From: Naegleria gruberi
Taxonomy: Eukaryota
Assembly: GCA_000004985.1 (NCBI GenBank)
Contig: GG739206.1
Strand: one strand, 5' to 3'
DNA: 3,809 bases
Under the pieces are notes generated by a model, which had not been told where the DNA came from, ran no database searches, and saw nothing but the letters and a program-made list of their open reading frames with translations. Below, piece after piece: positions 1-3,809 of the stretch. Made by a program: the position numbers and the translations under genes. Numbering within the stretch: position 1 is the stretch's first letter; every line of letters starts with the position of its first letter.

Positions 1-1259
1 AGATCATGATCGATACATTCTCCATGGGATGAACATGTACTGGAATCATTAGCTGAAATGTTGAAACAAATTGGAATTTCACATTGCATTCCAGTATATC
101 CTTCATGACATTGACATTGATCTGGTTTTTGACAAATACCATGTGAAAAACAAACAGGTTGGTTGGTGGCATTTATACCAAAACATATTGGAATGGAGCA
201 ATTGAGTCCTGTATAATTTGAATGACACATACATTCATTATATTGAATACATTGTCCATTACCATTACACGACTGAGTTTCATTTGATGGAATTCCAAAA
301 CAAAGTGGAATTTCACATTGTAATCCAATATGATTTTCATGACATTTACAATTATTTGGAGAATAACATTCACCAAATCCATTACACACTGATTGATTGG
401 AAGCATCAATGTTGTAACAAATTGCCATGGAACAATTTTCAGCTGTATATCCTTCAAAACACGAACAGTTATTTGGAGCCAAACATTGTCCATGTGAAGA
501 ACAAACCACTGACTGACTGGAATCTAATCCATAACATATTGGGAGTGAACAATTCAATGCGGCGGTGTATCCATCATGACAAGAACAGTTATTGAACTCA
601 ATGCATTCTCCATGAGATGAACATGTACTGGAATCATTAGCTGGAATATTGAAACAAATTGGAATTTCACATTGCATTCCAGTATATCCTTCATGACATT
701 GACATTGATCTGGTGCTTGACAAACGCCATGTGAAAAACAAACATGACTTTGATCAGTGGCATTAATTCCAAAACATATTGGAATGGAGCAATTGAGTCC
801 TGTAAAATCTAAATGACACACACATTCATTATATTGAATACATTGTCCATTACCATTACACGACTGAGTTTCATTTGCTGGAATTCCAAAACAAAGTGGA
901 ATTTCACATTGTAATCCCACATGATTTTCATGACATTTACAATTATTTGGAAAAGTACATTCACCAAATCCACTACATACTGAACTATTGGAAGCATCAA
1001 TATTGTAACAAATTGGAATGGAGCAATTATCAGATGTAAATCCTTCATGACATGAACAATTATTTGGTGATAGGCAATCACCATGTGAAGAACAAACTAA
1101 AACGTCGGAACTGTTGAGAGCATAGCAAACTGGACTGGAGCAGTCAATATCCACATAACTAGGCATGCAACTGCAATTGTTATGATCAATACAAGAACCA
1201 TGGCTTGAGCATACCAAGCTATAATTTGCTAATATTTCAAAGCAAATTGGCACTTGGCA
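1..1259 (-). repeat. Two complete 588-bp higher-order repeat copies (1259->672 and 671->84), plus the start of the next copy at 83->1. Each unit is 117 or 120 bp.
   Basis: Unit tops on the minus strand are 1259 (A-like, divergent), 1142 (B-like, divergent), 1025 (C), 908 (D), 791 (E), 671 (A), 551 (B), 434 (C), 317 (D), 200 (E) and 83 (A). There is an exact 65-nt match between 61..125 and 649..713, which is 588 bp apart. The protein-level unit order A-B-C-D-E is the same as in the array above the gap. Confidence 0.85.
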
Positions 1260-1580
1260 TTCTAGTCCTGTATATCCAGTGTCACATTGACAAGTATCCC
1301 AATTCACACATTTACCATGTGAAGAACATATTGAACTTGAATTAGTTCCATTAATACCATAGCAAATAGGAATAGAACATGTCAAACCAGTAAATCCCAA
1401 TTGACATTGGCATTCATCAACGGATTGGCAGGAACCGTGAGAAGAACATACATTGGAATCATTAGCTGGAATGTTGTAACAGAGAGGAGTTTCACATTGT
1501 GATCCAATGTGATTCTCTGAACAAGAACATTGATTTGGAGATGTGCATTCACCGAAAGAATTACAAGCTGAACGGTTGTT
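1..1580 (-). CDS. Continuation of the same tandem EGF-like-domain protein (the same gene, or at least the same exon family). Partial: it enters from the N gap and continues past position 1.
   Basis: I translated the minus strand by hand from 1580 down to 1 in the frame whose codons end at coordinates congruent to 2 mod 3 (1580 itself is the first base of the first codon, 1580-1578). There are 526 consecutive sense codons and no stop, reading NNRSACNSFGECTSPNQCSCSENHIGSQ|CETPLCYNIPANDSNVCSSHGSCQSVDECQCQLGFTGLT|CSIPICYGINGTNSSSICSSHGKCVNWDTCQCDTGYTGLE|CQVPICFEILANYSLVCSSHGSCIDHNNCSCMPSYVDID|CSSPVCYALNSSDVLVCSSHGDCLSPNNCSCHEGFTSDN|CSIPICYNIDASNSSVCSGFGECTFPNNCKCHENHVGLQ|CEIPLCFGIPANETQSCNGNGQCIQYNECVCHLDFTGLN|CSIPICFGINATDQSHVCFSHGVCQAPDQCQCHEGYTGMQ|CEIPICFNIPANDSSTCSSHGECIEFNNCSCHDGYTAALN|CSLPICYGLDSSQSVVCSSHGQCLAPNNCSCFEGYTAEN|CSMAICYNIDASNQSVCNGFGECYSPNNCKCHENHIGLQ|CEIPLCFGIPSNETQSCNGNGQCIQYNECMCHSNYTGLN|CSIPICFGINATNQPVCFSHGICQKPDQCQCHEGYTGMQ|CEIPICFNISANDSSTCSSHGECIDHDL. 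The unit types are the same as those above the gap. The track does not list this frame because it has no stop inside the window. The mod-1 frame that the track carries through the gap (1382..1580 of ORF 1382..3655, 'TTVQLVILSVNAHLQ...') is the wrong frame here. Confidence 0.9.
84..200 (-). other. Representative single EGF-like domain (E-type unit, 39 aa): CSIPICFGINATNQPVCFSHGICQKPDQCQCHEGYTGMQ.
   Basis: This unit has the canonical EGF cysteine framework. Its first Cys is the terminal Cys of the preceding domain and 'SIPI' is the inter-domain linker. It then runs Cys-x10-Cys-x5-Cys-x5-Cys-x-Cys, followed by an 8-residue loop containing G-Y-x-G before the next Cys. N-A-T and N-Q-P lie in the first loop. 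Confidence 0.8.
1260..1580 (-). repeat. A more divergent partial higher-order repeat copy next to the gap: a C-like tail, a D-like unit and an E-like unit.
   Basis: The units CETPLCYNIPANDSNV...QLGFTGLT (1496->1380) and CSIPICYGINGTNSSS...DTGYTGLE (1379->1260), plus the partial ...NSFGECTSPNQCSCSENHIGSQ (1580->1497), keep the 6-Cys scaffold and the unit order. Their loop sequences differ much more from the canonical D and E units than the other copies differ from each other. Confidence 0.7.
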
Positions 1581-2554
1581 NNNNNNNNNNNNNNNNNNNN
1601 NNNNNNNNNNNNNNNNNNNNNNNNNNNNNNNNNNNNNNNNNNNNNNNNNNNNNNNNNNNNNNNNNNNNNNNNNNNNNNNNNNNNNNNNNNNNNNNNNNNN
1701 NNNNNNNNNNNNNNNNNNNNNNNNNNNNNNNNNNNNNNNNNNNNNNNNNNNNNNNNNNNNNNNNNNNNNNNNNNNNNNNNNNNNNNNNNNNNNNNNNNNN
1801 NNNNNNNNNNNNNNNNNNNNNNNNNNNNNNNNNNNNNNNNNNNNNNNNNNNNNNNNNNNNNNNNNNNNNNNNNNNNNNNNNNNNNNNNNNNNNNNNNNNN
1901 NNNNNNNNNNNNNNNNNNNNNNNNNNNNNNNNNNNNNNNNNNNNNNNNNNNNNNNNNNNNNNNNNNNNNNNNNNNNNNNNNNNNNNNNNNNNNNNNNNNN
2001 NNNNNNNNNNNNNNNNNNNNNNNNNNNNNNNNNNNNNNNNNNNNNNNNNNNNNNNNNNNNNNNNNNNNNNNNNNNNNNNNNNNNNNNNNNNNNNNNNNNN
2101 NNNNNNNNNNNNNNNNNNNNNNNNNNNNNNNNNNNNNNNNNNNNNNNNNNNNNNNNNNNNNNNNNNNNNNNNNNNNNNNNNNNNNNNNNNNNNNNNNNNN
2201 NNNNNNNNNNNNNNNNNNNNNNNNNNNNNNNNNNNNNNNNNNNNNNNNNNNNNNNNNNNNNNNNNNNNNNNNNNNNNNNNNNNNNNNNNNNNNNNNNNNN
2301 NNNNNNNNNNNNNNNNNNNNNNNNNNNNNNNNNNNNNNNNNNNNNNNNNNNNNNNNNNNNNNNNNNNNNNNNNNNNNNNNNNNNNNNNNNNNNNNNNNNN
2401 NNNNNNNNNNNNNNNNNNNNNNNNNNNNNNNNNNNNNNNNNNNNNNNNNNNNNNNNNNNNNNNNNNNNNNNNNNNNNNNNNNNNNNNNNNNNNNNNNNNN
2501 NNNNNNNNNNNNNNNNNNNNNNNNNNNNNNNNNNNNNNNNNNNNNNNNNNNNNN
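1581..2554. other. Assembly gap: a run of 974 N inside the EGF-repeat coding array.
   Basis: Uninterrupted n characters. Both flanks are minus-strand EGF-repeat coding sequence. The coding phase differs across the gap: codon ends are congruent to 1 mod 3 above and to 2 mod 3 below. The stated gap length therefore cannot be the true length if this is one exon. Confidence 0.95.
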
Positions 2555-3809
2555 AATAGCTGGAATATTGAAACAAATTGGAATTTCACATTGCATTCCA
2601 GTATATCCTTCATGACATTGGCATTGATCTGGTTTTTGACAAATACCATGTGAAAAACAAACATGACTTTGATTAGTAGCATTAATTCCAAAACATATTG
2701 GAATTGAACAGTCTATTCCTGTATAATCTGAGTGGCACACACACTCGTTATATTGAATACATTGTCCGTTACCATTGCAAGCTTGAGTTTCATTTGATGG
2801 CACGCCAAAACAAATTGGAATTTCACATTGTAATCCAATATGATTTTCATGACATTTACAATTATTTGGAGAATAACATTCACCAAATCCACTACATACT
2901 GAACTATTGGAAGCATCTATGTTGTAACAAATTGGAATGGAACAATTATCGAATGTAAAACCATCAAAACATGTACAGTTATTTGGAGCCAAACATTGAC
3001 CATGTGAAGAACAAACCATTGATTGACTAGAATCTAATCCATAACATATTGGAAGGGAGCAATTCAATGCAGCAGTGTATCCATCATGACATGTGCAAAG
3101 ATTATGGTCGATACATTCTCCATGGAATGAACATGTGCTGGAATTGGTTGCTGGAATGTTGAAACAAATTGGAATTTCACATTGCATTCCAGTATATCCT
3201 TCATGACATTGACATTGATCTGGTGCTTGGCAAACGCCATGCGAAGAACAAACAGTTGGGTTGGTGGCATTACTTCCAAAACATATTGGAATTGAACAGT
3301 CTATTCCTGTATAATCTGAATTACACACACATTCATTATATTGAATACATTGTCCATTACCATTACACGACTGAGTTTCATTTGATGGAACTCCAAAACA
3401 AATTGGAATTTCACATTGTAATCCAATATGATTTTCATGACATTTACAATTATTTGGAGAATAACATTCACCAAATCCATTACACACTGATTGATTGGAA
3501 GCATCAATATTGTAACAAATTGGAATTGAACAATTATCGAATGTAAAACCATCAAAACATGAACAATTATTTGGAGCCAAACATTGTCCATGTGAAGAAC
3601 AAACAATTAGCTGACTAGAATCTAATCCATAACATATTGGAAGGGAGCAATTCAATGCAGCAGTGTATCCATCATTACATATACAAAGATCATGATCAAC
3701 GCAGTTACCATGTCCATAACAAGAATGTGAAAAATTGGCAGGAACATTGAAACAAATTGGAATTTCACAATTGACACCTGTATAACCATTCTGACAGGTA
3801 CAGGTATTA
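2555..3809 (-). CDS. Internal fragment of a large extracellular-type protein built from tandem EGF-like domains (tenascin/teneurin-like 6-Cys EGF array). It is partial at both ends: it continues upstream beyond 3809 and downstream into the N gap.
   Basis: I translated the minus strand by hand; codons end at coordinates congruent to 1 mod 3. Position 3809 is the third base of a split codon, so full codons run 3808 down to 2555. Reading from 3808 downward gives NTCTCQNGYTGVN|CEIPICFNVPANFSHSCYGHGNCVDHDLCICNDGYTAALN|CSLPICYGLDSSQLIVCSSHGQCLAPNNCSCFDGFTFDN|CSIPICYNIDASNQSVCNGFGECYSPNNCKCHENHIGLQ|CEIPICFGVPSNETQSCNGNGQCIQYNECVCNSDYTGID|CSIPICFGSNATNPTVCSSHGVCQAPDQCQCHEGYTGMQ|CEIPICFNIPATNSSTC..., ending at the gap with ...CEIPICFNIPAI. 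There is no stop anywhere. The track's ORF 1382..3655 starts only at an internal TTG (3653-3655) shown as M; the frame is actually open up to 3809, with 3656-3808 encoding ...GHGNCVDHDLCICNDGYTAALN. Cys spacing is invariant, with 6 Cys per 39-40 aa unit. Confidence 0.9.
2591..3769 (-). repeat. Two complete copies of a 5-unit higher-order coding tandem repeat (A-B-C-D-E EGF-like units): 3769->3182 is 588 bp and 3181->2591 is 591 bp. Partial copies flank them at 3770..3809 and 2555..2590.
   Basis: First-Cys codons of the units sit at minus-strand tops 3769, 3649, 3532, 3415, 3298 for copy 1 and 3181, 3061, 2944, 2827, 2710, 2590 for copy 2. The 53-mer ggaatttcacattgcattccagtatatccttcatgacattgacattgatctgg is exact at 3171..3223 and also at 73..125 and 661..713; at 2580..2632 it has one mismatch. 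The 3-bp length difference comes from an extra residue in the first Cys-Cys loop of the second E unit (NATNQSHVC versus NATNPTVC). Confidence 0.85.

What the first reader, a model, noticed from the sequence alone, without database searches (positions are those of the whole stretch)
1581..2554. The gap is probably collapsed tandem repeat; a testable prediction of its true length
The sequence above the gap stops 12 aa into an A unit (CEIPICFNIPAI). The sequence below it resumes 11 aa into a C-like unit (...NSFGEC...). If the A-B-C-D-E order is preserved, the missing sequence is 28+39+11 aa = 234 nt plus a whole number of roughly 588-nt cycles: 234, 822, 1410 and so on. For one continuous exon the true length must also be a multiple of 3, because the phase shifts from mod 1 to mod 2 across the 974-N gap and 974 is congruent to 2 mod 3. 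The value 822, which is 234+588, satisfies both conditions and is the closest to the assembler's 974 estimate. Identical 50-65-mers 588 bp apart explain why short-read assembly broke here.
Basis: inference. Interest (0 to 1): 0.5.

Follow-up and report, generated by a model that had tools for sequence, protein, structure and literature searches.

The report
Assembly gap inside EGF-repeat gene
The run of 974 N is an ordinary scaffold gap inside one long open reading frame that encodes tandem EGF-like repeats. The missing DNA is most likely more of the same repeat (about 822-828 nt), but nothing available here can prove its length.

Summary
The N-run is exactly 1581..2554. The coding strand is minus. 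The upstream part stops 12 aa into an A unit and the downstream part resumes 11 aa into a C-like unit. Both edges fall on codon boundaries, so a continuous ORF needs a gap length divisible by 3, and 974 is not.

The gene is a tandem array of 39-40-aa EGF-like units in a five-unit cycle (A-E) of 588 or 591 nt. The nearest named relatives are Naegleria EGF-array membrane proteins (39-48% identity).

- Every value 234+588n is divisible by 3, so the frame argument does not single out 822.
- 974 lies about 150 nt, half of a half-period, from the nearest in-register value, so the size estimate neither supports nor contradicts the register.
- Only the 2555 edge sits at a long exact repeat (64 nt). 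The 1580 edge is unique sequence.
- The suggested PCR anchor at 2600-2700 is not unique.

No other assembly of this organism was found in any collection, so the length stays untested. This is an assembly artefact in an ordinary repeat gene, of low interest.

The parts
1581..2554 (.). Run of 974 N: a scaffold gap of estimated, non-round size
2555..3808 (-). Upstream coding part, 418 codons with no stop: E-tail, A1 B1 C1 D1 E1 A2 B2 C2 D2 E2, then A3 (first 12 aa)
3..1580 (-). Downstream coding part, 526 codons with no stop: x1 (last 28 aa of a C-like unit), x2-x5, C4 D4 E4 A5 B5 C5 D5 E5, then A6 (first 27 aa)
2555..2590 (-). Truncated A3 unit at the gap edge (CEIPICFNIPAI). It differs from A5 at one base (2556), which turns the usual N/T into I, so this may be a contig-end error.
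2557..2620 (.). 64-nt exact repeat (= 638..701). Its inner 53 nt occur in four copies. This explains the contig break on this side.
1497..1580 (-). Truncated C-like unit x1 at the gap edge. It is unique sequence: 26/84 nt differ from every C copy, and 22-mers in its gap-proximal part (1500..1580) are at least 4 mismatches from any other site.
1026..1580 (-). Divergent cycle x1-x5 (C', ?, E', A', B'). It is the best unique anchor for PCR or read mapping.
2711..2827 (-). Unit D2, the only reasonably distinctive stretch near the upstream gap edge (22-mers at 2715..2790 are mostly 3-5, at worst 1, mismatches from other copies)

Best explanation
The N-run is a scaffolder's size estimate for unassembled sequence inside a single continuous minus-strand exon. 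That exon encodes a long extracellular array of 39-40-aa EGF-like domains arranged as a five-unit super-repeat (A-B-C-D-E, 588 or 591 nt per cycle). The copies are 85-97% identical in DNA and share exact stretches of 50-105 nt, so reads from the missing copies could not be placed uniquely.

The missing sequence is most likely the rest of A3 (28 aa), a B unit (39 aa) and the first 11 aa of x1, plus n whole cycles: 234 + n x (588-591) nt. n = 1 (822-828 nt) is most likely, n = 2 (about 1410-1419) comes next, and n = 0 (234) is unlikely.

Shown: the coordinates, frames, unit identities, periodicity, the exact repeat at the 2555 edge, and the EGF family assignment. Inferred: that the two contigs are truly adjacent, that the gap holds only array sequence, that the A-E order is kept, and the value of n.
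For: - 944 stop-free codons in 35% GC DNA, with both gap edges on codon boundaries.
- Pfam EGF_TEN scores 145 and 166 bits (cut-off 65), and EGF_2 scores 130 and 159 bits (cut-off 22).
- Differences between copies concentrate at third codon positions (146 against 83 and 48) and pooled pN/pS is 0.28, so this is a real, constrained coding array.
- k-mer offsets are 588/591 within contigs and 1919, 2507/2510 and 3098 across the gap.
- There is a 64-nt exact repeat at the 2555 edge.
- The units flanking the gap are A and C-like, compatible with A-B-C, and E', A', B', C, D, E... follow in order below the gap.
- EGF arrays of the nearest relatives lie in uninterrupted coding sequence. P0001 is a single 2742-nt ORF, and the three introns of N. 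lovaniensis P0003 all lie outside its EGF array.
- With a Gaussian error of 150-300 nt on the 974 estimate, n = 1 takes 69-98% of the weight among in-register values.
Against: - No spanning sequence was found in any collection.
- 974 is no nearer to an in-register value than a random number would be.
- The 1580 edge is unique sequence, so the break there is not explained by repeats visible in the window.
- x2 in the D position is not D-like.
- Homologues show no five-unit order.
- If only whole units are required, A3 plus 7 units gives 936-957 nt, which is closer to 974 than 822 is.
- Links between contigs that consist of repeats are prone to error (general point made in PMC4262078).
Confidence: 0.6

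Rival explanations
1. The gap holds array sequence but the five-unit order is broken. It contains extra, missing or divergent units like x1-x5, so the length is 117 + m x (117-120) nt with m not equal to 1, 6 or 11. For example, m = 7 gives 936-957 nt.
For: x2 occupies a D position but resembles E or A more than D. A1 and the E tail at the upstream end are also divergent. Homologous arrays have the same 39-40-aa unit but no A-E order. 936-957 nt is the unit-compatible length closest to 974.
Against: Wherever the order can be read, all 23 visible units follow the A-E cycle in position. A divergent, and therefore unique, unit in the gap should have assembled.
Confidence: 0.15
2. The join is a scaffolding error. 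The two contigs come from non-adjacent parts of the array, from a paralogous gene or from the other allele, and were linked by read pairs misplaced among near-identical copies. In that case the gap has no definable true length.
For: Both contigs consist almost wholly of repeats with exact matches of 50-105 nt. Copies in different contigs are as similar as neighbours: C1-C5 differ at 4/117 and D1-D5 at 9/117, against 12/117 for D1-D2. Repeats are a known source of spurious links (PMC4262078).
Against: The contigs share the same strand. The unit phase is compatible. The downstream edge is unique sequence, to which mates map unambiguously.
Confidence: 0.15
3. The gap contains a short intron or other non-coding insert in addition to repeat units. 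For example, 822-825 nt of array plus about 150 nt would equal 974, so the N count could even be close to right and the frame shift real.
For: 974 - 822 = 152 nt, somewhat longer than the 83-124-nt introns in the N. lovaniensis homologue's gene. The frame differs across the gap as written.
Against: No intron interrupts the 944 codons visible here, and none lies inside the EGF arrays of P0001 or P0003. N-run lengths in scaffolds are estimates, not measurements.
Confidence: 0.08

Closest known systems
EGF-like domain-containing membrane proteins of Naegleria (for example N. lovaniensis C9374_001210 = P0003 and N. gruberi 'predicted protein' P0004) and the environmental homologue P0001
   Same: They share the 39-40-aa unit with C-x4-C-[FY]-G...C-x5-C-x5-C-x-C-x8 spacing and many N-x-S/T sequons, and the arrays lie in uninterrupted coding sequence. 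Identity is 39-48% over 50-90% of the query.
   Different: Relatives have 5-13 individually diverged units and no super-repeat. This gene has at least 23 units in a recently homogenised five-unit cycle with 85-97% DNA identity between cycles. The rest of its architecture (signal peptide, NHL or other domains, membrane anchor) lies outside the window.
Teneurin and tenascin EGF arrays (Pfam EGF_TEN PF25024, EGF_Teneurin PF23106, EGF_2 PF07974)
   Same: Closely packed six-cysteine EGF domains with a C-x-C-x2-G-[YF]-x-G motif. Scores are far above the Pfam cut-offs.
   Different: The unit is 39-40 aa, longer than the roughly 31-aa tenascin repeat (from my own knowledge, not tested here). No FN3, fibrinogen, YD-shell or teneurin intracellular domain is visible. 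The nearest full-length relatives are protist proteins, not metazoan teneurins.
Scaffold gaps at tandem-repeat coding arrays in draft assemblies
   Same: An N-run of non-round length flanked on both sides by the same repeat family on the same strand, with a contig end at a long exact repeat.
   Different: One flank (1580) ends in unique sequence. 'Collapsed' is not quite the right word, because nothing shows that copies were merged. The sequence is simply missing.

Membership tests
EGF-like domain array (Pfam EGF_2 / EGF_TEN / EGF_Teneurin) | Score above the curated Pfam gathering threshold | tested here: met
   EGF_TEN 145.4 and 165.6 bits (cut-off 65), EGF_Teneurin 137.5 and 159.7 (cut-off 24.3), EGF_2 129.8 and 159.1 (cut-off 22.1)
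EGF-like domain array (Pfam EGF_2 / EGF_TEN / EGF_Teneurin) | Six conserved cysteines per domain with a C-x-C and a G-[YF]-x-G motif | tested here: met
   Every full unit has 6 Cys at fixed spacing. Cys makes up 15% of residues.
EGF-like domain array (Pfam EGF_2 / EGF_TEN / EGF_Teneurin) | EGF fold with 1-3, 2-4, 5-6 disulfides | not tested
   No structure was predicted. PDB sequence matches are to the EGF regions of WIF-1 and Delta-like proteins only.
Teneurin or tenascin proper | Accompanying domains (teneurin: intracellular domain, TM, NHL, YD shell; tenascin: heptads, FN3, fibrinogen globe) | not testable with these tools
   The ORF runs off both window ends, so only EGF units are visible.
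Heterolobosean (Naegleria-type) EGF-array membrane proteins | Significant full-array similarity with the same 39-40-aa unit | tested here: met
   P0001 E=4.5e-120 (42% identity, 90% coverage). Naegleria P0003, P0004 and P0008 have E from 1e-67 to 1e-60. Unit lengths are 39-40 aa.
Heterolobosean (Naegleria-type) EGF-array membrane proteins | Signal peptide and C-terminal membrane anchor | not testable with these tools
   Both termini lie outside the window. P0001 and P0003 carry a C-terminal hydrophobic stretch.
Scaffold gap caused by tandem repeats | Both flanks belong to the same repeat family, on the same strand, in a compatible unit phase | tested here: met
Scaffold gap caused by tandem repeats | Contig ends coincide with exact repeats longer than a typical assembly k-mer | tested here: inconclusive
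   Met at 2555 (64-nt exact repeat). Not met at 1580, where no repeat of 14 nt or more lies in the last 40 nt.
Scaffold gap caused by tandem repeats | Excess read depth on flanking copies, or spanning long reads that show repeat content | not testable with these tools
   No reads are available and no second assembly was found.

The most novel reading that the evidence does not exclude
The gene could be an unusually long protist surface protein of 30 or more EGF units whose five-unit cassette is being actively homogenised and reshuffled by gene conversion. Copy number would then vary between individuals, and the gap would reflect real length heterogeneity in the sequenced population rather than only an assembler limit. 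That would also account for a break inside unique sequence at 1580.
Probability: 0.07. Interest if true: 0.3.

Novelty: not a real feature. Interest (0 to 1): 0.08.

Why it matters
It matters only for assembly and annotation quality. As written, the scaffold puts the two halves of one ORF in different frames, so automatic annotation would split or drop the gene. Replacing 974 N by a measured length would restore one gene model. The gene itself is an ordinary, if long, member of the EGF-array surface proteins common in heterolobosean amoebae. No new biology depends on the gap.

Tried and rejected
- Tandem Repeats Finder found nothing because its period limit is 500 nt, below the 588-nt cycle. 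I used k-mer offsets instead.
- I looked for the source or another assembly that spans the gap, using a 23-nt pattern present 8 times in the window. It gave one chance hit in a bacterial pyr operon in genome contigs, none in viral contigs and none in metagenome contigs. A protein-guided scan of metagenome contigs gave no relative.
- The 5.8-billion-protein search gave nothing above 48% identity. The organism, or at least this locus, is therefore absent or hidden from all collections.
- I tested whether the homologues share the A-E order, which would have supported order conservation in the gap. They do not.
- I considered that the N-run might be a mask of exact length rather than an estimate. 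This cannot be excluded, but it would require a frameshift or an insert of about 150 nt, so I folded it into the intron rival.
- I spent no further large protein searches. A near-identical model of either half would already have been found through the shared canonical cycles.

Full report
**1. What is in the window**

The window has 3809 nt and 35% GC outside a single N-run at exactly 1581..2554, which is 974 N. The minus strand is coding. It is open for 418 codons from 3808 to 2555, and in another frame for 526 codons from 1580 to 3. The ORF runs off both ends of the window. All other frames are full of stops. The 40-125-aa ORFs listed on the plus strand and in other minus-strand frames are by-products of the repeat.

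**2. The gene**

Both halves score far above the Pfam cut-offs for EGF-type families. EGF_TEN scores 145 and 166 bits against a cut-off of 65, EGF_Teneurin 138 and 160 against 24, and EGF_2 130 and 159 against 22.

Splitting at the C-x2-[PA]-x-C-[FY] motif gives 39-40-aa units with six cysteines each. There are five recurring types in a fixed order:
- upstream: (E tail) A1 B1 C1 D1 E1 A2 B2 C2 D2 E2 A3 (12 aa);
- the gap;
- downstream: x1 (28 aa) x2 x3 x4 x5 C4 D4 E4 A5 B5 C5 D5 E5 A6 (27 aa).

Canonical copies of one type are mostly 79-97% identical in protein (A1 is lower, 70% to A2) and at most 56% identical to other types. x1 is C-like (64% against at most 43%), x3 is E-like, x4 is weakly A-like and x5 is B-like. 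x2 sits in the D position but is not D-like.

A cycle is 196 or 197 aa because E is 39 or 40 aa long, so the period is 588 or 591 nt. This is also seen directly as the dominant exact-k-mer offsets.

Differences between copies concentrate at third codon positions (146 against 83 and 48), and pooled pN/pS is 0.28. With 944 stop-free codons, this is a genuine, constrained coding array. Cysteine makes up 15% of residues and there are 40 N-x-S/T sequons, which fits an extracellular glycoprotein.

**3. Relatives**

The best match in 5.8 billion proteins is an environmental protein, P0001 (42% identity, 90% coverage). Next come Naegleria lovaniensis, N. gruberi and N. fowleri, and Willaertia, EGF-like proteins at 32-48% identity.

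P0001 has 12 recognised EGF units, then a non-EGF region and a hydrophobic C-terminal anchor. P0003 has an NHL region, then seven EGF units, then an anchor.

These arrays use the same 39-40-aa unit but show no A-E order. The five-unit super-repeat is therefore a recent amplification or homogenisation in this gene. The organism is probably a heterolobosean-like protist. This inference is weak because it rests on a single repeat gene.

**4.

All of the following are correct:
- the coordinates;
- the 12-aa A stub (CEIPICFNIPAI);
- the C-like restart 11 aa into a unit;
- the change of frame;
- 974 = 2 mod 3.

The last upstream codon ends at 2555 and the first downstream codon starts at 1580, so a continuous ORF needs a gap length divisible by 3.

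The statement about identical 50-65-mers is an understatement. Exact repeats reach 87 nt at offset 588 and 105 nt between cycles 1 and 5.

**5.

The register arithmetic holds at DNA level. Exact matches across the gap sit at offsets 1919, 2507/2510 and 3098. So 945 + g must be a whole number of 588/591-nt cycles, which gives g = 231-234, 819-828 or 1407-1419.

Five qualifications apply.
- (a) Every member of 234+588n is divisible by 3, so the frame argument cannot favour 822. It only shows that 974 is not exact, which is true of any estimated gap.
- (b) 974 is 150 nt from the nearest in-register value. That is 0.51 of a half-period, exactly what an arbitrary number would give. The size estimate therefore carries no information on whether the register is kept. 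It only ranks n once the register is assumed. With an error SD of 150-300 nt, n = 1 takes 69-98% of the weight, n = 2 takes 2-27%, and n = 0 takes at most 4%.
- (c) The 2555 edge lies 2 nt beyond a 64-nt exact repeat whose inner 53 nt occur four times, which fits a repeat-induced break. The 1580 edge lies in unique sequence with no exact repeat of 14 nt or more in its last 40 nt. The break on that side is not explained by anything visible in the window. Possible causes are a second copy of x1 elsewhere, heterozygosity, low coverage or end trimming.
- (d) Order preservation is an assumption. x2 breaks the type pattern and homologues have no such order. If only whole units are required, A3 plus 7 units gives 936-957 nt, which is nearer to 974 than 822 is.
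- (e) The two contigs are made almost wholly of repeats, and copies in different contigs are as similar as neighbouring copies. A repeat-induced misjoin therefore cannot be excluded. The scaffolding literature names repeats as a main source of spurious links and treats gap sizes as estimates with uncertainty (PMC4262078).

**6. Could an intron sit in the gap?**

No intron interrupts the 944 visible codons. P0001 is one uninterrupted 2742-nt ORF. The N. lovaniensis gene for P0003 has three introns of 124, 99 and 83 nt, all outside its EGF array. An intron in the gap is therefore unlikely. It is not excluded, because 974 minus 822-825 is about 150 nt.

**7. Search for a spanning sequence**

A 23-nt pattern present eight times in the window found:
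- one chance match in a bacterial pyr operon in genome contigs;
- nothing in viral contigs;
- nothing in metagenome contigs.

A protein-guided scan of metagenome contigs also found no relative. The true length therefore cannot be checked here.

**8. Predicted minimal fill**

This prediction is an inference from the paralogous copies.
- The rest of A3: [ND]SSTCS[FS]HGECI[DE][HF]N[LN]C[TS]CHDGYTAALN.
- Then a B unit: CSLPICYGLDSSQ[SL][MIV]VCSSHGQCLAPNNC[ST]CF[DE]G[FY]T[FA][DE]N.
- Then CSIPICYNIDA-like, joining NNRSACNSFGEC.
- Zero, one or two full cycles would be inserted after the B unit.

**9. Practical correction**

22-mers there are 0-2 mismatches from other copies, and 2622..2663 is identical to 115..156. 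D2 (2715..2790) is the nearest usable anchor, with 22-mers mostly 3-5 (at worst 1) mismatches from other copies. On the downstream side, 22-mers across most of 1200..1580 are 4-9 mismatches from other copies, but in the bins from about 1300 to 1320 and 1440 to 1500 the minimum falls to 1-2.

**10. Verdict**

The feature is an assembly gap in an ordinary, though long and recently homogenised, EGF-repeat gene. Among in-register lengths, 822-828 nt is the best guess. My overall confidence that the gap is purely in-register array sequence is about 0.6, and that n = 1 specifically about 0.45. Biological interest is low.

Noticed in passing
window 201..434 vs 3299..3532; 2711..2827: Similarity between copies is mosaic rather than graded by distance. 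D1 is much closer to D4 and D5 (pS about 0.09) than to its neighbour D2 (pS 0.44). C1 and C5 differ at 4/117 nt. The longest exact repeat (105 nt, 306..410 = 3404..3508) links cycle 5 to cycle 1. This suggests patchy gene conversion or non-adjacent duplication.
   Followed up: partly
window 1380..1496: Unit x2 sits in the D position of the divergent cycle but resembles E or A more than D (36% identity to D, 54% to E). The five-unit order is therefore not strictly kept next to the gap.
   Followed up: partly
window 1541..1580: The contig end at 1580 lies in unique sequence, with no exact repeat of 14 nt or more. The reason the assembly stopped here is unexplained. A second copy of this unit elsewhere, heterozygosity or end trimming are possible causes.
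   Followed up: partly
window 2555..2557: The last codon before the gap (ATT, Ile) differs from the Asn codon of A5 by one base, at 2556, the penultimate base of the contig. This may be a contig-end error rather than a real variant.
   Followed up: no
window 3650..3808: The upstream end of the window is also divergent. A1 differs from A2 at 30/120 nt, and the E tail (NTCTCQNGYTGVN) differs from other E copies at 10-14 of 38-39 nt. The canonical block may therefore start only at B1.
   Followed up: no
window 218..595 (+), 3169..3546 (+), 173..493 (-): Repeated ORFs of 100-125 aa occur in non-coding frames of the array. They recur with the 588-nt period and are by-products of the repeat, not genes.
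   Followed up: no
L002 8001..10742; L003 3001..5841: The homologue P0001 is a single-ORF protein with 12 recognised EGF units, a non-EGF region and a C-terminal hydrophobic anchor, on a eukaryote-like metagenome contig (neighbours VPS11, ubiquitin, RING). The gene for N. lovaniensis P0003 has three short introns (124, 99 and 83 nt), all outside its EGF array.
   Followed up: partly
L001 260..282: The only genome contigs match to the 23-nt repeat pattern lies in a Zixiibacteriota MAG next to pyrimidine-biosynthesis-like ORFs. It is a chance match with no EGF coding.
   Followed up: yes
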